Of a DNA stretch of 46,037 nucleotides, positions 21,907 through 45,602 are shown piece by piece. The stretch is from Escherichia phage ClaudiaMuster_Bas77. Position 1 is the first letter of the stretch. Each line of letters opens with the position of its first letter. The stretch is taken from the sequence record PQ850598.1, one strand, 5' to 3'. The notes under the pieces were generated by a model that was given only the letters and a program-made list of their open reading frames with translations, searched no databases and was not told where the DNA came from. The position numbers and the translations under genes were made by a program.

Positions 21907-22277
21907 ACATGCTTGAGCTGGTTGATGCATATCTTCAGGATGCAGGATTGTATGATGGCTGGACTTCGCAGTTGCAGTTCTGGAACGACACCGGAGATGG
22001 CAACGAGCAATTTATTGTTCTGCAATCCAATGGTGGCACGCAGGTGATGGACGGCCTCGGCGGTGACTTCTATTTCTCGCTGTACGTTGTTGGGAAACAA
22101 GGCCAGTACAATGTTGCTGATGTCGACGCTAAAGCCAATGAGATTATCGAATACATCAAGACACATCCGATTGATTCATGCGTGAACTACATCCAGTTGC
22201 AGGCTCCTCTCGGACGACCAATGTTGACGGAGGAGAAGCGCCCTGTGCATGAGTTGCTTTTGCGGGTTGTGAAATAA
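21903..22277 (+). CDS. putative tail terminator protein
   Basis: 124-aa ORF, last of the coupled head-tail joining genes. Confidence 0.4.
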   Translation: MNMLELVDAYLQDAGLYDGWTSQLQFWNDTGDGNEQFIVLQSNGGTQVMDGLGGDFYFSLYVVGKQGQYNVADVDAKANEIIEYIKTHPIDSCVNYIQLQAPLGRPMLTEEKRPVHELLLRVVK

Positions 22278-22282
22278 ATAAA

Positions 22283-22305
22283 GCCGCACGAAGCGGCCTT
22301 ATTGC
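22283..22305 (+). terminator. weak hairpin (GCCGC acgaa GCGGC)
   Basis: Short GC stem immediately after the 21903..22277 stop; poor T-tract. Confidence 0.3.
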
Positions 22306-22309
22306 TGGT

Positions 22310-22940
22310 TTAAGCATTGCCAGCATGCTTTCTTAATATCCAGCCCCGTAACCCATACATACCCCTACATATGATTGCGATAATGCTGGATATTAAGTGT
22401 TGTGGTGGCCGGTGCTGATATCCGGCATAAGGCGCTTATTCGGCGGCGTCGAGCTTGCTTATTCGCTTGAGCCATCCTCGTGAGTCAGCCACGTCCCACT
22501 GCGCATCAGCCTGCGCATTCACCACAACGGAAATAGCACTGGATAACCAAGCGCGCAGACTCTTCACGATTATCTGCTCAATGCTCTTACCTGTTGTGTG
22601 CCACGTTTCGTGTGGCTTACGGCAACGACATTACCTGGTTATTCGCTGCACCCTTGAGGGATTTACTAAGGCGACATGCCCGTTGTTACCCACGAATGAG
22701 AGTACTGTCTTCGAGCAGACTTTGCGCGCAAGAACGACGATCAATCACAATACCCTCATTTGTGGGTGCCCATTATTAATCACAGCGGGCCACTGCGCCG
22801 AATTTGCTTACAAGGAATCGGAAGACCTTGCTGACTTACAGGCTATTACGCCGCCATCAGAACAACATCATCGTTTGCATTTATCTTTGTGGTCAGTTTC
22901 TAAAAAGTCCGCAAAGTCGCTTACGAAAACCATCTGAAAT
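22310..22940. other. ORF-poor ~630-bp region with 13-bp inverted repeat
   Basis: No convincing ORF on either strand (track ORF 22455..22937 starts at TTG and has non-protein-like composition). CTTAATATCCAGC (22332-22344) pairs with GCTGGATATTAAG (22385-22397); GCCGG tgctgatat CCGGC hairpin near 22409-22427. Confidence 0.4.
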
Positions 22941-22942
22941 AC

Positions 22943-22986
22943 AATCTACACCACAAAATAATCACTGTCAACACCTGTGATATAAT
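22943..22986. promoter_or_regulatory. divergent promoter region
   Basis: Plus strand: extended -10 TGaTATAAT (22978-22986) ahead of the major tail gene. Minus strand: TTGACA (rc of 22967-22972), 18-nt spacer, TAGATT (rc of 22943-22948), pointing into the ORF-poor region. Confidence 0.5.
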
Positions 22987-23022
22987 CACCACGTTAGCAG
23001 CTAACACAATTCGGAGATCGAA

Positions 23023-23739
23023 ATGGCTATTTGTGCAAATGATAAAGGCGTTCTGGTCGGTCGCATGACCAGACTGTTCCTTGCTGAAGGGTGCGGAGAC
23101 GCAGTTCCGGAGGCGGGAGACTGGAAGTATTTAGGCTCAACCACCAGTAAGGGTGTTGACTACTCGCCGCAGACTACCACGTCGGAGGCAGATACCACTG
23201 GCGGTTTTGTTTCCACTCTCGTTACCAGCTCTGATATGACCATCAGCGCAGAGGTGGAAATCCGCAAGAATGACCCGAGCGATGAGTTTGGCTTCCATCG
23301 TCTGGTTGAGATTTACGCCACCGAACTGAAAGCTCGTCGCCAGCCTTCCTTGTGGGTGCGTCAGGTGACTGGTGCGACTATCGTTACGGCGTATTGCAAC
23401 ATCACCAGCATCAGCTACGAAGGTGGTACGAACGATATCGTTACTGGCAGCCTTGAGTTCAAGGTTTACGATTCTGATAGCGTTACCGTCGAAAGCCTTG
23501 AGCCTCTGGCATTCACTACAGACCTGCCATCAACTGGCACGGCTGGCAGCCCGTTAACTGTTGCTGTTGAAGGTGGTGTCGCTCCTTACACTTATGTATG
23601 GCGCAAAGATGGCGTGGTTGTCGGCAGCGAATCAGGCGCGTCTCTGGCAAGCCCTGCCGCTGGCGTGTATACCGTCACGGTGACTGATTCGTCTACTGAC
23701 CCTGAAATTATTATCAGCACGGCTTGCACTGTGTCCTGA
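23023..23739 (+). CDS. major tail protein with C-terminal Ig-like domain
   Basis: 238 aa; located just before chaperone and tape measure genes; C-terminal Ig-like segment (TAGSPLTVAVEGGVAPYTYVWRKDGVVVGSESGASLASPAAGVYTVTVTD). Confidence 0.65.
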   Translation: MAICANDKGVLVGRMTRLFLAEGCGDAVPEAGDWKYLGSTTSKGVDYSPQTTTSEADTTGGFVSTLVTSSDMTISAEVEIRKNDPSDEFGFHRLVEIYATELKARRQPSLWVRQVTGATIVTAYCNITSISYEGGTNDIVTGSLEFKVYDSDSVTVESLEPLAFTTDLPSTGTAGSPLTVAVEGGVAPYTYVWRKDGVVVGSESGASLASPAAGVYTVTVTDSSTDPEIIISTACTVS

Positions 23740-23744
23740 TAAAT

Positions 23745-23778
23745 AAAAAAGCCCCGGAAGGGGCTTTGTTTTATTCTT
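23745..23778. terminator. bidirectional rho-independent terminator
   Basis: AAAAAA GCCCC ggaa GGGGC TTTGTTTTATT. Confidence 0.65.
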
Positions 23779-24037
23779 GCGGTGGCTCTGGTAGTGGCAT
23801 CCAGTGGGTGGCATCACTAATCAAGCCATATTCATTAGTTTGAGGGTGATTACCGCGCCCATCTCCGTATTTAAAACTCTCCATAAAGCCATAATGTTTA
23901 TCACCATTAATGTTCACAAAACCGTAATAAGCAGGAATAACGCCGATCTCACACGTAACCAGTAAGGGAAAACTAGTTCTCCAGTTTAGCTCGCCAATTA
24001 CAGGCATCCTCTCACTGCACTTAATCCACTGGATCAT
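23771..24037 (-). CDS. DUF551-like protein
   Basis: 88 aa; C-terminal ...ATHWMPLPEPP resembles the DUF551 signature as recalled. Confidence 0.45.
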   Translation of the reverse strand: MIQWIKCSERMPVIGELNWRTSFPLLVTCEIGVIPAYYGFVNINGDKHYGFMESFKYGDGRGNHPQTNEYGLISDATHWMPLPEPPQE

Positions 24038-24177
24038 ATCACCTTATCCTCATCAAAAATCACACCAATCACACGAAGCAAGTCTTTCGCCATGCGTTCA
24101 GCTTCTTCATAGTCGTAACCCGCATCGACATACAAATCGGTGTAGAAAATCAGGTCGGATTTTGTTTGTTCGTTCAT
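24034..24177 (-). CDS. hypothetical acidic protein (47 aa)
   Basis: Hand-translated: MNEQTKSDLIFYTDLYVDAGYDYEEAERMAKDLLRVIGVIFDEDKVI; ATGA coupling on both sides. Confidence 0.4.
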   Translation of the reverse strand: MNEQTKSDLIFYTDLYVDAGYDYEEAERMAKDLLRVIGVIFDEDKVI

Positions 24178-24380
24178 TTTTTATCGCCGCTCTTAACTAA
24201 TGCCCAAACAAGCGCGGCGACCCAGCCAATAAAACTCCATCCAACGAGAATATTCAGTACGCAGATTGCAGTCGTGTTTACGTGCTTGCGTTGCAGAGCC
24301 ACAAAAGATGGCAGGAGGTACGCAAATATCACCAACCCAACAAAAAACAACAAAATAACGACGTCCATAGCTAACCTCAA
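24174..24380 (-). CDS. superinfection-immunity-like small membrane protein
   Basis: 68 aa; LLPSFVALQRKHVNTTAICVLNILVGWSFIGWVAALVWA fits the Imm_superinfect family pattern (..R.H.N......N...GWT..GW..ALIWA) as recalled. Confidence 0.5.
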   Translation of the reverse strand: MRLAMDVVILLFFVGLVIFAYLLPSFVALQRKHVNTTAICVLNILVGWSFIGWVAALVWALVKSGDKK

Positions 24381-24400
24381 CTGTTAATAACTTGTTTATA

Positions 24401-24694
24401 TTACATGCCATTCTTTTCACACAAAGCAACAGCCACATCACGCAATTGCTCTTTAGTCATATCCTTGCGTGCATAAACCATTTCTACGATAGCAAGGCCG
24501 ATTATTTCTGCTGATTCGTTGTTTTTTGCAGAACCTTTTACCACCACTTCCGCAAGATTCTTGCTGATACCGTTATCGCGAACATCAGCAGTGTTCATGG
24601 CGATTTCTCCAATGTTTTTGCACATATCGGAAGTCGCACTGGCGGCAAAAGAAGAAGCCAATAGTACAGATGCAATCAACATTTTAATTTTCAT
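24401..24694 (-). CDS. secreted / periplasmic protein with signal peptide
   Basis: 97 aa; N-terminal MKIKMLIASVLLASSFAASA with AxA-type cleavage site; no lipobox. Confidence 0.5.
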   Translation of the reverse strand: MKIKMLIASVLLASSFAASATSDMCKNIGEIAMNTADVRDNGISKNLAEVVVKGSAKNNESAEIIGLAIVEMVYARKDMTKEQLRDVAVALCEKNGM

Positions 24695-24733
24695 AACTCA
24701 CCTCATTTATTCATCACTCGTTTCGATGACTTG

Positions 24734-24782
24734 AATCTACATCACCACCTCGCAGGTGTCAACACCACTGAGATGATATAAT
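24734..24782. promoter_or_regulatory. divergent promoter region
   Basis: Minus strand: TTGACA (rc of 24757-24762), 17-nt spacer, TAGATT (rc of 24734-24739). Plus strand: extended -10 TGaTATAAT (24774-24782) ahead of 24803. Confidence 0.55.
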
Positions 24783-24802
24783 CAACATCAGTCAAATTCA
24801 GG

Positions 24803-25519
24803 ATGCAAAACATGAGCAATCGCACGCCACTAACAGAAATCGGGGAGATGCGCATCTCTCTTTCTGACAGGAGTTTTTTCTTTAAGCCATCATTCCGCGC
24901 CATGAATGAAATTGGCACACCAAAAGAAATCGTCGAGGTGTACGCTAAGCTCAATGGCATTGATTATGTTGCGCCATTGCAGCACGTAGAATACCTACCA
25001 TTTGGCGCGCAGATGCAGGTTATGAAGACTATCAATAAGCCTGTGTATGGTCGCCATGTGCTGAGCGCAGCCTATATTGTCATGCAGTCATGCTGTGAAG
25101 ATGATGTTTCTGTGTTGATTGGTGGCTGGAAGCCAACACCGCGCGGCGTGCGATATGTTCCAGGCATCATGCCAGTGAGCGACATTATTATTATTGCGCG
25201 TAACCTTATGCAGCATGGCATCATCGGAAAATCTCCACTCAAAGTGCCTGAGCGTCTGGAAGAGCAGGGAAAGAAAACCACAAACGAGTTTCATGCATCG
25301 CAATACATCATCTCAGCACGCACGCATTTCGACATGACGCGCGATGAGGCAGAAAACCTGTCTATGACAGAGTTTCAGATGATGATTAAGAATAAATATC
25401 CAGAGCCGAAAGGGTTAACGAAAGAAGAACGCGCAGCAGAGTACGATCAGGCTAAAGCAGACCGTGAGCGCATGAAGGCACTGGCTGAACGCAAAGCGAA
25501 AAAAGCGAGGAATACATAA
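24803..25519 (+). CDS. putative tail assembly chaperone
   Basis: 238-aa ORF between major tail and tape measure genes, stop overlaps tape measure ATG (TAATG); no slippery site verified. Confidence 0.4.
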   Translation: MQNMSNRTPLTEIGEMRISLSDRSFFFKPSFRAMNEIGTPKEIVEVYAKLNGIDYVAPLQHVEYLPFGAQMQVMKTINKPVYGRHVLSAAYIVMQSCCEDDVSVLIGGWKPTPRGVRYVPGIMPVSDIIIIARNLMQHGIIGKSPLKVPERLEEQGKKTTNEFHASQYIISARTHFDMTRDEAENLSMTEFQMMIKNKYPEPKGLTKEERAAEYDQAKADRERMKALAERKAKKARNT

Positions 25520-28001
25520 TGGCTGAAGAAGTCGGCGGAATTGTCTATGAAGTCGGGATGGATGTATCCGGGCTGACGACTGGCGGGCAAAAGGTAAACA
25601 AGGTTCTTCAGGAGATTGAGAAGTCAATTGATGAGTCAATTGCCGGGATAAATAAACTTGATACCGGATTAAAAAACACCGCATCGACAGCTGAGAAATC
25701 TGGCAGGAGTTTCTCCAGTTTAAATAACGCCATGAGACAGGGCGGCTACCAGATTCAGGACTTTGTAGTTCAGGTGCAGAGCGGACAATCGGCACTCGTT
25801 GCTTTAAGTCAACAAGGTAGTCAGTTATTAAGCGTCTTTGGTTCTGGAGGCGCAGTTGCCGGTGCATTGCTAACCATCGGTACGGTAATCGTTGGCTCAT
25901 TAATTGCTGGCATGGATAACGCAGCCGTTTCCACAAAGGCGCTCACCGCAGCACAGCAGCGACTTGCTGACATATTCCAGCTTTCTGCTAATGGAGTTGT
26001 AGTTCTCTCTGACAAATTCGCAACACTGGCTAAACAGTCAGAAAACGCCGCCAGAGCACAGTTAACAATGGCTCTGATTGATGCAAACAATATCATCAAG
26101 GCTTCAGTGCAGGGCGTCAATGAGCTTGGCGACGCACTTGGCTCATGGAAAGCGCCACTATCAGCCGCCATCAGCCAGCTTGACACACTGAAAGCAAGAG
26201 GCATTGATGTAAACACAGCACTCAAGAATCTTGGCGGGACATATGAGGGTAATATCCTCGGACTAAACCAGCTTAATCAGGTGGTAAAAAGTCTGGCAGA
26301 TGAGTTTGGCATAAGCGCCGAGGATGCTTTGAAGCTGGTTGAAGCTCTGGCGGCGGTGAGAAAAAACGCCAATCCTGAAACAATAGCAGAATTACGTGAC
26401 CTGACTGTTGACCTTAGTCAGAAATATGGATATGCAAACAAGTCGCTATCTGAACTGACTGGCAAGGTTGGCGAATATTCCATTTCAGCAGATCAGGCAG
26501 CAGAATCTACAAAAATGGCTACCGACATGCTTAACGGTCACAAGGTAGCTTCAGAAGAGGATGCGAGAGCAACTGAAGAAAACACGAAAAGGCTTCAGGC
26601 TTACATCCAGTCGATCAAGGAAGAAGGTGAAACCATCGCCTTTACCGCCAGACAAAAGGCTCTGTACAGAGCAGAGCAGCTTGGAGCAAGTGACGCAGAT
26701 AAGCAAACAATCAACTCGTCGTTCGACAAGATAGAGGCTTACAAAGCTGAACTTGCCGCAAAGAAAGAGCAGGAAAGGCAAGATAAAAAACGCATAACTG
26801 CATCAACAAAACAGGCCAATCTTGAAGAGTCGGTAGCTCAGAAGCTGGAAAAATTACGCCAGCAAACCATGCTCAATGCCACGTCTACCAGCGAACTATC
26901 ACGCGAGCAAGCAATTCTCAACGCGCAGCAATCGCTTGGCAAGGCCGCCACTCAGGAGCAAATAAAACTGGCTGGTGAGTACGCTGCGAAGATTTGGGAC
27001 CAGAAGAATGCATTGAAGGAGCAAGCAGAAGCGGAAAAAGAAAAGCAACGCGTAGAAAAATCATATCAAGGGTTGCGCGCTATTGCATCGCCAACCACTG
27101 GCATTGACAGTGAATACCAGCAACGTATGGCTGACCTTGACGCCTACGCCGCAGCATATCCGCAGAAAATCACGGAGATTGAGCAGACTCGCGCAGCAAT
27201 TGAAGCACAATACCGCCAACAGCGAATGGACGCTATGTGGGCTGAATGGCAGCAACAAAGCCTCGGTGCGCAACTGTTCGGTACCGCTCTTGATTCAGCA
27301 ATGAGTACGGCATCAAACAGCATCACCGGATTGCTTACCGGAACGATGAGCGTTCAGGATGCCATGCGCAGCCTCGGCTCTACGGTGCTGAACTCTCTGG
27401 TAAACAGCTTCATTGAAATGGGTGTGCAGTGGGTTAAATCTGCTGTTATGGGGCAGACTGCACAGGTTGCGGCTACGGCAACCACAACGGCGGCGCAAAC
27501 GGCAGGATTGGCAACCACAACAGCAGCATCTACGGCGGCGGCAGCAACCACTACGGCGGCATGGACTCCGGCAGCAATCGTCGCATCAATCGGCTCATTC
27601 GGCGGGGCGGCTGCAATTGGGGTAGGTGCCGTTCTCGGAGCGCTGGCGATGGGCATTGCTGGCAAGCGTAAAAATGGTGGCCCTGTTAGTGCCGGAAGTA
27701 TGTACGAAGTTGGCGAAAATGGCTTGCCTGAAATATTCCAGGCGTCCAACGGCCGCCAGTATATGATTCCCGGTAACGATGGATCAGTTATCAGCAACAA
27801 AGACCTGACAGGCGGCAGCAGTGGCGTTGTAGTTTATAATAGCATTATCAATAACAGCTCAGCGCAGGTTAGCAGCAGCGCCAGAGATAATGGTGACGGC
27901 AGCGTGACGATTGAGACGATTGTGAGTGATATAGAAAACAACGGCCCCATTGGGCAAAGCATTAGCCGCAACTACTCAGCAAACCGGAGAGCAACCGAAT
28001 A

Positions 28002-28002: not shown

Positions 28003-32724
<4,722 letters not shown>

Positions 32725-44530: not shown

Positions 44531-44559
44531 TTGACGTAGAAACATCATTGATGTAGATT
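44531..44559 (+). promoter_or_regulatory. sigma70-like promoter (TTGACG-17-TAGATT)
   Basis: TTGACG, 17-nt spacer, TAGATT about 30 nt upstream of the 44590 ATG; contains GACGTAGAAAC and GATGTAGATTG motif copies. Confidence 0.55.
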
Positions 44560-44589: not shown

Positions 44590-44775
44590 ATGAACAAAGA
44601 AAGCACGTACAGCATCGACCAGATGAAGTTGTTCAGCGATATATGCATGGCATTGTCACAACAGGTTCCAAGTCTACCTGCTGATATGCGCTCAAATGCC
44701 ATCATTGATGCGGCAAACATGATTTGTGAGGCATATGCTATGACTGAAGATGAATATAAGGCATCGAAGAAATGA
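44590..44775 (+). CDS. hypothetical protein (61 aa)
   Basis: Track ORF with GAGGGTGAAGAG RBS. Confidence 0.5.
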   Translation: MNKESTYSIDQMKLFSDICMALSQQVPSLPADMRSNAIIDAANMICEAYAMTEDEYKASKK

Positions 44776-44867
44776 CAGGCGCAGCATTCGAGCTTATCTC
44801 CAGTCTGGTTATCGTGGCATTCATCATTATCGCAGTGGCGGTTTCTAAATCAGGGTATAAGGAGTAA
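44772..44867 (+). CDS. small membrane peptide (31 aa)
   Basis: Hand-translated: MTGAAFELISSLVIVAFIIIAVAVSKSGYKE; ATGA overlap with upstream stop. Confidence 0.35.
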   Translation: MTGAAFELISSLVIVAFIIIAVAVSKSGYKE

Positions 44868-44870
44868 CAA

Positions 44871-45053
44871 ATGGCAAAGACTATCTATCGTCGCGAGAAA
44901 CTGGAGCCTGAACTCGGTCACGTTGGCGCGCAAAACTTTATGAGCAAGCAGGCACGCAATGCAATGGAATCTATACGCGTGAATCGCGTTGTGCGCGTGT
45001 TTAACGGTGAAGGTAAGCGAAGAGTAATGGATGAACTGATTATCGTATTTTGA
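44871..45053 (+). CDS. hypothetical protein (60 aa)
   Basis: Track ORF with strong AAGGAG RBS. Confidence 0.55.
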   Translation: MAKTIYRREKLEPELGHVGAQNFMSKQARNAMESIRVNRVVRVFNGEGKRRVMDELIIVF

Positions 45054-45089
45054 CATCGATTCAGCAGGCTTATTTCTAATGGTGATGAT

Positions 45090-45317
45090 ATGGAAAAAGT
45101 AAAAACATACGAGTTCTGGTTTGTGCAGAACAAAATGTATGCAAGCAGGACAATCAAGAGAGTCAGCTGGTGGAATAAGTGGTTAATCCTCTCCGGCTGC
45201 ATCGTGCTGGCAAAGTGCAAATTCAAAGCGATTGACATCACTGATGAAAACGCACTCAAAATCGCAAAGATTGTGTTTGAAGAGGATGGCTATTACGAAG
45301 AAATTATGGGGGGTTAG
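45090..45317 (+). CDS. hypothetical protein (75 aa)
   Basis: Track ORF. Confidence 0.5.
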   Translation: MEKVKTYEFWFVQNKMYASRTIKRVSWWNKWLILSGCIVLAKCKFKAIDITDENALKIAKIVFEEDGYYEEIMGG

Positions 45318-45320
45318 GGT

Positions 45321-45602
45321 ATGAGTGAAGTTAAAACGTATGCAGTAAACTGCAACGACGCGTGGCTTAATACAGATGGTGATGACATCTCTGGCTCATA
45401 TGTTAAGTATGCTGATTACGCAGCTCTTCAAGCTAAATGCGATGAGCTACTTAAAGAAATTAAAAACATGCAGGACCAAGCCCTTGATGATGGATGCCGA
45501 ATTACAGAGCTTGAAGAAGCCTTGCAAGATAAGCAGGCACTAATTCCTGATGAGCACGACACCACCGCTCTGCAATTCGAAAGCCTGGCTAAAAGTGAAT
45601 AG
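45321..45602 (+). CDS. hypothetical acidic coiled-coil protein (93 aa)
   Basis: Track ORF with GGGGGTTAGGGT RBS. Confidence 0.5.
   Translation: MSEVKTYAVNCNDAWLNTDGDDISGSYVKYADYAALQAKCDELLKEIKNMQDQALDDGCRITELEEALQDKQALIPDEHDTTALQFESLAKSE

What the first reader, a model, noticed from the sequence alone, without database searches (positions are those of the whole stretch)
23771..24694. Minus-strand moron cassette in the tail module with superinfection-exclusion-like membrane and secreted proteins
Inserted between the major tail gene and the chaperone, bounded by a bidirectional terminator (23745-23778) and a TTGACA-17-TAGATT promoter (24734-24762). It encodes a signal-peptide protein (97 aa), a small membrane protein resembling the superinfection-immunity family (GWSFIGWVAALVWA), a 47-aa acidic protein and a DUF551-like protein. 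The arrangement suggests a receptor-blocking or entry-exclusion function expressed independently of the late genes.
Basis: partly seen in the sequence, partly recalled or inferred. Interest (0 to 1): 0.5.

Follow-up and report, generated by a model that had tools for sequence, protein, structure and literature searches.

The report
Accessory gene island in phage tail module
A small, separately transcribed group of four genes sits backwards inside the tail genes of a lytic Skatevirus-type phage. One gene is a true relative of the phage T4 protein that stops a second phage injecting its DNA, but the island is already annotated in many related phages, so it is ordinary.

Summary
Four minus-strand genes lie between the major tail gene and the DUF6246 gene, bounded by a two-way terminator hairpin and a TTGACA-17-TAGATT promoter. 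Profile searches confirm Imm_superinfect (E 1.6e-17; 36% identical to T4 Imm) and DUF551 (E 4.9e-12).

The window is a near-complete genome of a lytic Skatevirus-cluster phage, 98.4% identical here to Escherichia phage Bas79, where the island is already annotated.

Comparison with 34 Skatevirus loci, including the window, shows a mosaic island, not one system:
- The 97-aa exported protein is absent from 12 loci.
- Imm is absent from 8.
- The DUF551 gene comes in very divergent forms. The window's form is close to Eaa proteins of E. coli and Salmonella prophages.
- Some relatives add a P22 NinX gene.
- Only the 47-aa acidic gene is always present.

More distant relatives have the two tail genes adjacent, so the island is an insertion. 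Promoter hexamers and the terminator are conserved across two genera.

Best reading: a host-RNA-polymerase-driven accessory island whose Imm gene probably blocks DNA entry at the inner membrane. Receptor blocking is not supported. The exported protein is not a Spackle homologue, and its function and that of the 47-aa protein remain unknown.

The parts
23023..23739 (+). Major tail protein gene, the left flank of the island. It has a C-terminal Ig-like domain.
   Evidence: phrog_853 major tail protein, E 1.7e-87. Weak BiPBP_C and Hoc-like matches to residues 154-237.
23748..23767 (.). Two-way intrinsic terminator hairpin with an A-run (23742-23749) and a T-run (23768-23777). It ends both the major tail transcript and the island transcript.
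   Evidence: Scored on both strands. Folding energy is -14.5 to -16 kcal/mol, with minus-strand z -5.2. It is present in all 34 Skatevirus loci. Roufvirus-like L038 and L039 keep the hairpin with a different stem sequence, CCCCC/GGGGG.
23771..24037 (-). orfD: an 88-aa stand-alone DUF551 protein and the last gene of the island. It has no signal peptide or hydrophobic segment, so it is presumed cytoplasmic.
   Evidence: - PF04448 E 4.9e-12.
- 85-89% identical to the C-terminal domain of 135-150-aa Eaa/DUF551 proteins of E. coli, Salmonella and Shigella chromosomes.
- 85-87% DNA identity to phages HK140 and Emek eaa2.
- Most Skatevirus relatives carry forms only 29-41% identical.
- The gene at this position is deleted in the viable mutant seszw_220S.
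24034..24177 (-). orfC: a 47-aa acidic protein (pI 4.1) of unknown function. It is the one invariant gene of the island.
   Evidence: - phrog_17424 E 2.3e-36, no Pfam family.
- Present in every one of the 34 Skatevirus loci and in Roufvirus-like loci.
- Found in 204 phage records.
- dN/dS 0.04.
- Its 4-nt overlap with the Imm stop is kept in Vibrio phage pYD38-A and Flyfo Tbat1_6.
24174..24368 (-). Imm homologue: a 64-aa protein with two hydrophobic segments, of the T4 superinfection immunity family. An alternative TTG start at 24380 would give 68 aa.
   Evidence: - PF14373 E 1.6e-17 and phrog_1039 'immunity to superinfection' E 1e-23.
- T4 Imm itself matches PF14373 at E 7.4e-16.
- BLASTP against T4 Imm: 36% identity over 53 aa, E 2e-11.
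- Two hydrophobic stretches.
- dN/dS 0.06.
24401..24694 (-). orfA: a 97-aa exported protein. It has a Sec-type signal peptide (predicted cut after Ala20), then four helices, with two invariant cysteines (C25, C92).
   Evidence: - Sequence features.
- AlphaFold model: pLDDT 78 overall, about 88 for residues 21-97, four helices.
- Family alignment: invariant C25, R39, D40, C92.
- phrog_2315 E 1.6e-19, no Pfam family.
- dN/dS 0.11.
- Absent from 12 of 34 relatives.
24734..24762 (-). Island promoter, sigma-70 type: GGTGTTGACA-N17-TGTAGATT.
   Evidence: -.
- Both hexamers are unchanged in 32 of 34 Skatevirus loci while the spacer varies. The other two loci have TTGACA-N18-TAGATT.
- TTGACA-N18-TAGATT is also kept in Roufvirus-like L038 and L039.
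- The same promoter type is found at 22971..22943 (-), and at 44531-44559 (+) ahead of a run of small genes.
24774..24782 (+). Divergent extended -10 promoter, TGATATAAT, for the DUF6246, tape measure and tail genes. Its -35 region overlaps the island promoter's -35 on the other strand.
   Evidence: Pattern scan. The segment is invariant in 34 loci. L038 and L039 have TGGTATAAT. Matching elements sit ahead of the portal (4352), head (13702) and major tail (22978) genes.
24812..25519 (+). DUF6246 gene, the right flank of the island. It occupies the position of a tail assembly chaperone. The likely start is 24812; the ORF listing gives 24803.
   Evidence: PF19759 E 1e-73. Bas79 annotates a 708-nt gene. 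The chaperone role was not tested.

Best explanation
This is a separately transcribed, mosaic accessory-gene island inserted backwards between the major tail gene and the DUF6246 gene of a lytic Skatevirus-cluster phage.

Proposed mechanism:
- Host RNA polymerase with sigma-70 starts at the near-consensus promoter 24762..24734. It transcribes orfA, Imm, orfC and orfD as one operon and stops at the two-way hairpin 23748-23767.
- The Imm homologue inserts into the inner membrane. Like T4 Imm, it keeps the DNA of later-arriving phages from crossing that membrane. This protects the infected cell from superinfection and from damage by secondary adsorption.
- orfA is exported by the Sec pathway and folds in the periplasm as a disulfide-clamped four-helix protein of unknown target.
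- orfC (always present) and the DUF551 protein stay in the cytoplasm and do something else.

The genes are independent modules that share one expression slot. They are not parts of one machine.

Shown: the gene content, family membership, insertion, mosaicism, purifying selection, and conservation of the control elements.
Inferred: promoter activity and timing, export, and the exclusion function itself.
For: Family membership:
- Imm meets PF14373 well above the cut-off and is 36% identical to T4 Imm, the characterised member, which matches the same model.

Insertion:
- Relatives with major tail protein 28-51% identical have the two flanking genes 47-71 nt apart.

Own control elements:
- The -35 and -10 hexamers are unchanged in 32 of 34 loci while the spacer drifts, and are kept in a second genus.
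- The terminator hairpin is kept, with a changed stem sequence, in that genus.
- The same promoter type heads a run of small genes at 44531 that look like early genes.
- Structural gene blocks instead have extended -10 promoters.

Modularity across 34 loci:
- Both orfA and Imm in 14, orfA only in 8, Imm only in 12.
- Optional NinX and a 91-aa gene.
- DUF551 forms only 29-41% identical to each other.
- The window's DUF551 form is shared with prophage Eaa genes.

Other support:
- Purifying selection on orfA, Imm and orfC.
- G+C is 42.4% in the island against 46.7% for the genome.
- A DUF551 deletion is viable in seszw (PMC9825161).
Against: - No experiment on any Imm homologue outside T-even phages was found. 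T4 Imm's own mechanism is poorly understood (PMC6832632, PMC7677548).
- PF14373 is a broad family of small membrane proteins.
- RNA-seq of the unrelated Kagunavirus K1B4 placed its Imm homologue among late-peaking genes (PMC12645636). That does not fit an early role.
- The -10 hexamer TAGATT is only 4 of 6 matches, so promoter strength is unknown.
- orfC is universal, and it was retained together with orfA in at least 57 genome-reduced seszw mutants. The island may therefore also carry a function the phage needs, which does not fit a purely accessory reading.
Confidence: 0.55

Rival explanations
1. One reading: all four proteins work together as one receptor-blocking or entry-exclusion system.
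For: - The genes share one promoter and terminator, and three of them overlap by 4 nt.
- Every one of the 34 Skatevirus loci has at least one of orfA or Imm ahead of orfC.
- The Imm-orfC 4-nt overlap is kept in Roufvirus phages.
Against: - The genes assort independently: orfA is absent from 12 of 34 loci, Imm from 8, and DUF551 from 2.
- 'At least one of orfA or Imm' is not significant. About 2.8 loci with neither are expected under independence, so observing 0 has a chance of roughly 0.06, before allowing for relatedness.
- The DUF551 gene is exchanged with prophage Eaa genes and is deletable.
- orfC and orfD have no export signal.
- The receptor is O-antigen, which is too abundant to mask during a lytic cycle (PMC11990801).
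Confidence: 0.08
2. Two-layer exclusion as in T4. Imm blocks DNA entry at the inner membrane, while orfA acts like Spackle: a periplasmic inhibitor of a cell-wall hydrolase carried by the incoming tail. A candidate target is the gpK-like NlpC/P60 protein encoded at 29811-30326.
For: - orfA has the same design as Spackle: a 97-aa precursor, a signal peptide, a mature helical bundle of about 77 aa, and two invariant cysteines near the two ends of the mature protein. Spackle is a 97-aa precursor giving a 75-aa helical bundle with a Cys29-Cys81 disulfide (PMC7677548).
- It lies next to Imm.
- The tail module encodes an NlpC/P60 domain protein.
- One distant orfA relative sits beside a lysis cassette.
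Against: - No homology to Spackle: BLASTP E 1.1, and the profile comparison aligns only the signal peptide.
- orfA occurs without Imm in 8 loci, and Imm without orfA in 12.
- Other distant relatives lie among replication genes.
Confidence: 0.12
3. The island exists mainly for orfC, a small cytoplasmic protein the phage needs. It might, for example, regulate the overlapping divergent promoters or aid tail production. Imm, orfA, NinX and DUF551 are passengers that use its expression slot.
For: - orfC is the only gene present in all 34 Skatevirus loci and in Roufvirus relatives, and it is found in 204 phage records.
- It has the lowest dN/dS, 0.04.
- It is intact in at least 57 genome-reduced seszw mutants, down to 36.6 kb.
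- The island promoter's -35 overlaps the -35 region of the tail-gene promoter.
Against: - No family, fold or motif points to DNA binding or to any other function. The only profile hits in the PDB are designed helical repeat proteins.
- More distant relatives with the same tail genes lack a detectable orfC.
- The seszw gene-by-gene essentiality table could not be read.
Confidence: 0.15
4. The Imm-like protein is a holin-like or lysis-timing membrane protein, not an exclusion factor.
For: T4 Imm has been said to resemble a holin, and imm mutants shorten lysis inhibition (PMC6832632). The K1B4 study groups its Imm homologue with late and lysis functions (PMC12645636).
Against: - The phage has a separate lysis cassette far away: endolysin, holin and spanin, per the Bas79 annotation.
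- Imm is missing from 8 of 34 relatives, with no evident replacement in the island.
- The K1B4 claim rests on annotation, not on a test.
Confidence: 0.07

Closest known systems
Bacteriophage T4 Imm (superinfection immunity protein, Pfam PF14373)
   Same: - Same Pfam family, with similar scores for both proteins.
- 36% identity over the conserved 53 residues, including the GW..GW..(L/F)(V/I)W motif.
- Both are small proteins with two hydrophobic segments, encoded by a lytic phage.
   Different: - 64 aa against 83 aa; the window protein lacks T4's N-terminal extension.
- It is encoded in a siphovirus tail module, not among replication genes.
- It is co-transcribed with unrelated small genes.
- No functional data exist for it, and the incoming phage's injection apparatus is entirely different from T4's.
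Bacteriophage T4 Spackle (gp61.3, PF25676)
   Same: orfA has the same precursor length (97 aa), a signal peptide, a small helical mature domain and a probable single disulfide. In this phage it sits beside the Imm gene (PMC7677548).
   Different: There is no sequence or profile similarity beyond the signal peptide, and no fold match. It is an analogue in design at most, not a family member.
Morons of temperate phages (Hendrix and co-workers' definition, from my own knowledge)
   Same: - An extra gene block sits between two genes that are adjacent in relatives.
- It has its own promoter and terminator.
- Its G+C is lower.
- Its orientation is opposite to the surrounding late genes.
   Different: The phage is lytic, so there is no prophage state in which the block could be expressed. 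One gene (orfC) is universal, not optional.
Accessory genes of lambdoid and P22-like phages: Eaa/Ea22 C-terminal DUF551 domains and NinX
   Same: - orfD is 85-89% identical to the DUF551 domain of prophage Eaa proteins.
- It shows 85-87% DNA identity to the HK140 and Emek eaa2 genes.
- Some relatives carry a P22 NinX-family gene at the same spot.
   Different: Here DUF551 stands alone, without the N-terminal Eaa part, and it lies in a tail module and not in the early ea or nin regions. Its function is unknown in every context (PMC10834534).
The same island as annotated in Escherichia phage SusanneMuster_Bas79 (PQ850629), Salmonella phage Skate and about 150 other records
   Same: Identical layout: 98.4% DNA identity to Bas79 over 23000-25600. 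Bas79 annotates 'superinfection immunity protein' plus three hypothetical proteins. Skate additionally has two-way terminators annotated.
   Different: Nothing of substance. No record or paper found here analyses the island's mosaic make-up or tests it.

Membership tests
T4 Imm / Imm_superinfect (PF14373) | Match to the family profile above the curated cut-off | tested here: met
   63.6 bits against a cut-off of 27.9, E 1.6e-17, covering profile positions 2-42 of 42. T4 Imm scores 58.2 bits.
T4 Imm / Imm_superinfect (PF14373) | Direct similarity to the characterised member, T4 Imm | tested here: met
   BLASTP: 36% identity, 51% positives over 53 aa with no gaps, E 2e-11.
T4 Imm / Imm_superinfect (PF14373) | Small inner-membrane protein with two hydrophobic segments | tested here: met
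   Kyte-Doolittle 19-residue windows exceed 1.6 at about residues 1-21 and 39-59 of the 64-aa protein; GRAVY 1.31. Actual location and topology were not testable.
T4 Imm / Imm_superinfect (PF14373) | Early expression after infection | not testable with these tools
   There is only a conserved sigma-70-type promoter. RNA-seq of an unrelated phage put its homologue late (PMC12645636).
T4 Imm / Imm_superinfect (PF14373) | Blocks DNA entry of superinfecting phage | not testable with these tools
   This needs plating and DNA-injection assays.
T4 Spackle (PF25676) | Sequence or profile match to Spackle | tested here: not met
   There is no Pfam hit for orfA or for 19 family members. BLASTP gives E 1.1. 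The profile comparison aligns only 17 signal-peptide residues, probability 14%.
T4 Spackle (PF25676) | Fold match to the solved Spackle structure | tested here: not met
T4 Spackle (PF25676) | Periplasmic, disulfide-bonded small helical protein | tested here: inconclusive
   A signal-peptide-like N-terminus, four predicted helices and invariant C25/C92 fit this description. Export and the disulfide are only inferred.
DUF551 (PF04448) | Match to the family profile above the curated cut-off | tested here: met
   47 bits against a cut-off of 22, E 4.9e-12, covering the full profile. The nearest relatives are annotated DUF551/Eaa.
Moron (temperate-phage sense) | Extra genes between two genes that are adjacent in related phages | tested here: met
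   The gap is 47-71 nt in L042, L044, L048-L050, L052 and L059, against 666-1371 nt in Skatevirus loci.
Moron (temperate-phage sense) | Own promoter and terminator | tested here: met
   Both are predicted and conserved. Their activity was not measured.
Moron (temperate-phage sense) | Expressed from a prophage to benefit the lysogen | tested here: not met
   The 98%-identical Bas79 annotation has no integrase or repressor. Skatevirus phages are described as lytic (PMC11990801, PMC9825161).
Known anti-phage defence proteins (PADLOC-DB) | Match to a defence-system protein model | tested here: not met
   There are no hits for orfA, orfC or orfD. Imm gives only a weak transmembrane-segment match to 2TM-TIR, E 0.0012.

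The most novel reading that the evidence does not exclude
The island's front end may encode a previously undescribed exclusion module of siphoviruses. In it, orfA founds a new family of periplasmic, disulfide-clamped four-helix proteins (invariant C..RD.G..C). These would neutralise a component of incoming tails, doing Spackle's job with an unrelated fold. They would be interchangeable or additive with Imm, and both would act through the universal 47-aa partner orfC.
Probability: 0.1. Interest if true: 0.6.

Novelty: new member of a known kind. Interest (0 to 1): 0.27.

Why it matters
Superinfection immunity by Imm has only been studied in T-even phages. A conserved homologue in a small, genetically tractable lytic siphovirus would be a simple system for asking how Imm blocks DNA entry and how specific that block is. 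The close relatives Bas77-81 are in the BASEL collection, and seszw already has a genome-reduction toolkit.

For phage cocktails built from Skatevirus phages, the Imm-only, orfA-only and both-genes variants could affect whether co-applied phages exclude each other.

Beyond that, the island is a routine example of a mosaic accessory slot, and it is already annotated in public records.

Tried and rejected
**orfA as a Spackle homologue: rejected**
- orfA against the PDB by sequence and by profile gave nothing below E 0.05.
- Pfam on 20 family members gave nothing.

**orfA family context**
- An exhaustive profile search found only 21 cluster representatives with E <= 0.001.
- Their contexts differ: replication genes, beside a lysis cassette, or short contigs. 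No shared neighbour points to a function.
- A locus search with the divergent alignment failed because no stretch was conserved enough.

**DUF551 fold**
- The lambda Ea22 NMR structure is not a DUF551 domain. Only the Ea22 V2 variant carries DUF551 (PMC10834534).

**orfC**
- Close homologues are confined to this phage group.
- The only profile hits in the PDB are designed helical repeat proteins, which is a composition effect.

**Other searches**
- PADLOC and NCBIfam gave nothing meaningful.

**'At least one of orfA or Imm' as evidence of redundancy**
- Not significant: about 2.8 loci with neither expected, 0 seen, and the loci are related to one another.

**First classification of the phage: corrected**
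- I first took the phage for Guernseyvirinae. It belongs to the Skatevirus cluster.

**Essentiality of orfA and orfC in seszw**
- The supplementary tables are not held.
- Only indirect evidence from the deposited mutant genomes could be used.
Full report
**What the window is**

The 46-kb window is an almost complete genome of a small lytic siphovirus.
- Region 23000-25600 is 98.4% identical to Escherichia phage SusanneMuster_Bas79 and 91-93% identical to about 150 Salmonella, Escherichia and Shigella phages such as Skate, C1, Sf11 and seszw.
- The BASEL paper places Bas77-81 in the Skatevirus cluster: O-antigen-dependent small siphoviruses with a single tailspike (PMC11990801).
- The Bas79 annotation shows no integrase or repressor.

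**The observation**

Four minus-strand genes fill the space between the major tail gene (23023-23739, phrog_853 E 1.7e-87) and the DUF6246 gene (PF19759 E 1e-73), which precedes the tape measure gene.

In transcription order they are:

| Gene | Coordinates | Size | Notes |
|---|---|---|---|
| orfA | 24401-24694 | 97 aa | signal-peptide-like N-terminus |
| Imm | 24174-24368 | 64 aa | ATG start with a GAGG site; the 68-aa TTG start is less likely |
| orfC | 24034-24177 | 47 aa | pI 4.1 |
| orfD | 23771-24037 | 88 aa | DUF551 |

- The last three overlap by ATGA.
- The hairpin 23748-23767 is flanked by an A-run and a T-run. It scores as an intrinsic terminator in both directions, with a minus-strand folding z-score of -5.2.
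- The promoter TTGACA-17-TAGATT lies at 24762..24734. The pattern is found three times in the genome where 0.19 is expected.
- Pfam confirms Imm_superinfect (E 1.6e-17) and DUF551 (E 4.9e-12) above their curated cut-offs. orfA and orfC have PHROG families but no Pfam family.
- Across relatives, dN/dS is 0.11, 0.06 and 0.04 for orfA, Imm and orfC. An overlapping 82-aa ORF in another frame gives 1.57 and is not a gene.

The description is therefore correct in every particular I could test.

**It is an insertion**

I fetched 55 loci from viral contigs with the DUF6246 protein.
- In relatives whose major tail protein is only 28-51% identical, the two flanking genes are 47-71 nt apart (L042, L044, L048-L050, L052, L059).
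- In 34 Skatevirus loci, including the window, the gap is 666-1371 nt.
- Island G+C is 42.4% against 46.7% for the genome.

**It is a mosaic, not a system**

Gene content of the 34 loci, read from the promoter end, is: [91-aa membrane-anchored gene] [orfA] [Imm] orfC [NinX] [DUF551], where brackets mark optional genes.
- orfA and Imm occur together in 14 loci, orfA alone in 8 and Imm alone in 12.
- No locus lacks both. With about 2.8 such loci expected by chance, and with related genomes, this is not significant.
- DUF551 comes in forms only 29-41% identical to the window's. Only two loci share the window's form.
- That form is 85-89% identical to the C-terminal domain of 135-150-aa Eaa proteins in E. 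coli, Salmonella and Shigella chromosomes. It is 85-87% identical in DNA to HK140 and Emek eaa2. This points to recent exchange with temperate phages.
- The optional 96-136-aa gene is P22 NinX (PF10765, E 2e-13).
- orfC alone is universal. It is present in all 34 loci and in Roufvirus-like loci at 51-55% identity, and in 204 phage records including Klebsiella, Vibrio and Aeromonas phages. In every locus examined it sits in this slot.
- Where Imm is present in Roufvirus phages (pYD38-A, Flyfo Tbat1_6), it again overlaps orfC by 4 nt.

**Control elements**

- In all 34 loci the first gene starts at the same distance from the promoter, whichever gene it is.
- The -35 and -10 hexamers are unchanged in 32 loci while the 17-nt spacer varies at several positions. 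The other two loci, and the Roufvirus-like L038 and L039, have TTGACA-N18-TAGATT.
- The terminator hairpin is present everywhere. In L038 and L039 it has a different stem (CCCCC/GGGGG), so the structure is kept rather than the sequence.
- Back-to-back with the island promoter is an extended -10 promoter, TGATATAAT (24774-24782), for the tail genes. Its -35 region overlaps the island's -35 on the opposite strand.
- Four such extended -10 elements precede the portal, head, major tail and tail-assembly blocks.
- The TTGACA...TGTAGATT type recurs at 44531 ahead of a run of small genes that look like early genes.

This suggests, but does not show, that the island is read by unmodified host polymerase on a different schedule from the structural genes.

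**What the proteins are**

*Imm*
- T4 Imm itself matches PF14373 (E 7.4e-16). It aligns with the window protein at 36% identity over 53 residues without gaps.
- Both have two long hydrophobic stretches.
- In T4, Imm and the periplasmic protein Spackle together give superinfection exclusion. Imm is a plasma-membrane protein whose action is not well understood (PMC7677548, PMC6832632).

*orfA*
- It has a Sec-type leader (MKIK, hydrophobic core, ASA|TS). A confident four-helix model covers residues 21-97.
- A wider search found a thin family of about 100-aa phage proteins with invariant C25, R39, D40 and C92.
- The tail module does encode a gpK-like NlpC/P60 protein (29811-30326). This would be a conceivable target, but that is speculation.

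*orfC and orfD*
- They have no export signals and no informative matches by sequence, profile or fold.
- DUF551 is a portable domain of unknown function (PMC10834534).

**Experimental hints from the literature**

Phage seszw (island layout orfA-orfC-DUF551) was subjected to CRISPR-based genome reduction (PMC9825161).
- The deposited mutant seszw_220S lacks exactly the DUF551 gene, so that gene is dispensable in the laboratory.
- The orfA-orfC segment is intact in at least 57 deposited mutant genomes, down to 36.6 kb.
- The gene-by-gene table was not available, so essentiality is undecided.
- RNA-seq of the unrelated Kagunavirus K1B4 placed its Imm homologue among late-peaking genes (PMC12645636). 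This is weak evidence against an early role.

**Conclusion**

The reading as one receptor-blocking cassette is not supported. The genes are independent modules sharing an expression slot; Imm acts after adsorption, at the inner membrane; and strict 'moron' status does not apply to a lytic phage.

The most likely function of the one assignable gene is T4-like immunity to superinfection, at confidence about 0.55, because no homologue outside T-even phages has been tested. The functions of orfA and orfC are open.

The island is already annotated in many public genomes, so it is a new member of a known kind and of modest interest. The points added here are:
- its mosaic structure;
- the universal 47-aa gene;
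- the conserved overlapping divergent promoters;
- the exchange of its distal genes with temperate phages.

Noticed in passing
window 22268-22990: A second minus-strand unit with the same layout lies just upstream of the major tail gene.
- A terminator-like hairpin sits at 22281-22300 (minus strand).
- About 650 nt follow with no convincing ORF on either strand.
- Then come GGTGTTGACA-N17-TGTAGATT at 22971..22943, back-to-back with TGATATAAT at 22978-22986.
- Across 34 relatives the middle part is mosaic, but block 22303-22405 is 93-99% identical, more than the adjacent coding sequence 22150-22300 (84-97%).
- That block holds a perfect 13-nt inverted repeat (22332-22344 / 22385-22397).
- Region 22268-22420 folds at about -51 kcal/mol on either strand (z -3.7 and -3.8).
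- There is no Rfam match at gathering score and no tRNA.

It could be a phage small RNA (hairpin plus terminator) or a DNA site.
   Followed up: partly
window 4352, 13702, 22978, 24774 (+ strand): Four extended -10 promoter elements (TGnTATAAT) without good -35 boxes each sit just ahead of a structural gene block: portal, head, major tail, and tail assembly. They look like a distinct promoter class for the structural genes.
   Followed up: no
window 44531-44559 (+ strand): A third copy of the island-type promoter (TTGACG-N17-TGTAGATT) heads a run of small plus-strand ORFs (44590-45602) that look like early genes.
   Followed up: no
window 22797-22969 (- strand): Weak sub-threshold Rfam matches to tmRNA models: permuted tmRNA at 28.5 bits against a gathering score of 47 (E 8e-4), and beta tmRNA at 17.2 bits. 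They overlap the minus-strand promoter and ARAGORN finds nothing there, so they are probably chance.
   Followed up: no
window 24193-24441 (- strand): An 82-aa ORF overlaps Imm in another frame. It recurs in relatives but has dN/dS 1.57 and a 3rd-position-poor substitution pattern. It is not a gene.
   Followed up: yes
window 29811-30326 (+ strand): A tail protein with an NlpC/P60 domain (E 9.8e-9), in the position of lambda gpK. It could be a virion-borne cell-wall endopeptidase.
   Followed up: no
L068 (Vibrio phage pYD38-A) 2501-2632; L069 (Klebsiella phage 6991) 2622-3107: In Roufvirus relatives the same island carries an HNH endonuclease gene right after orfC. The orfC homologue is unannotated in pYD38-A.
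   Followed up: no
L034 3582-3896: One Skatevirus relative has a 104-aa Imm with an extra N-terminal hydrophobic extension. The Pfam domain covers residues 56-97, E 1.4e-15. Roufvirus Imm genes are also about 99 aa.
   Followed up: no
window 23023-23739: The C-terminal third of the major tail protein (residues about 154-237) matches Ig-like and Hoc-like decoration domains. It is likely a surface-exposed Ig-like domain on the tail tube.
   Followed up: no
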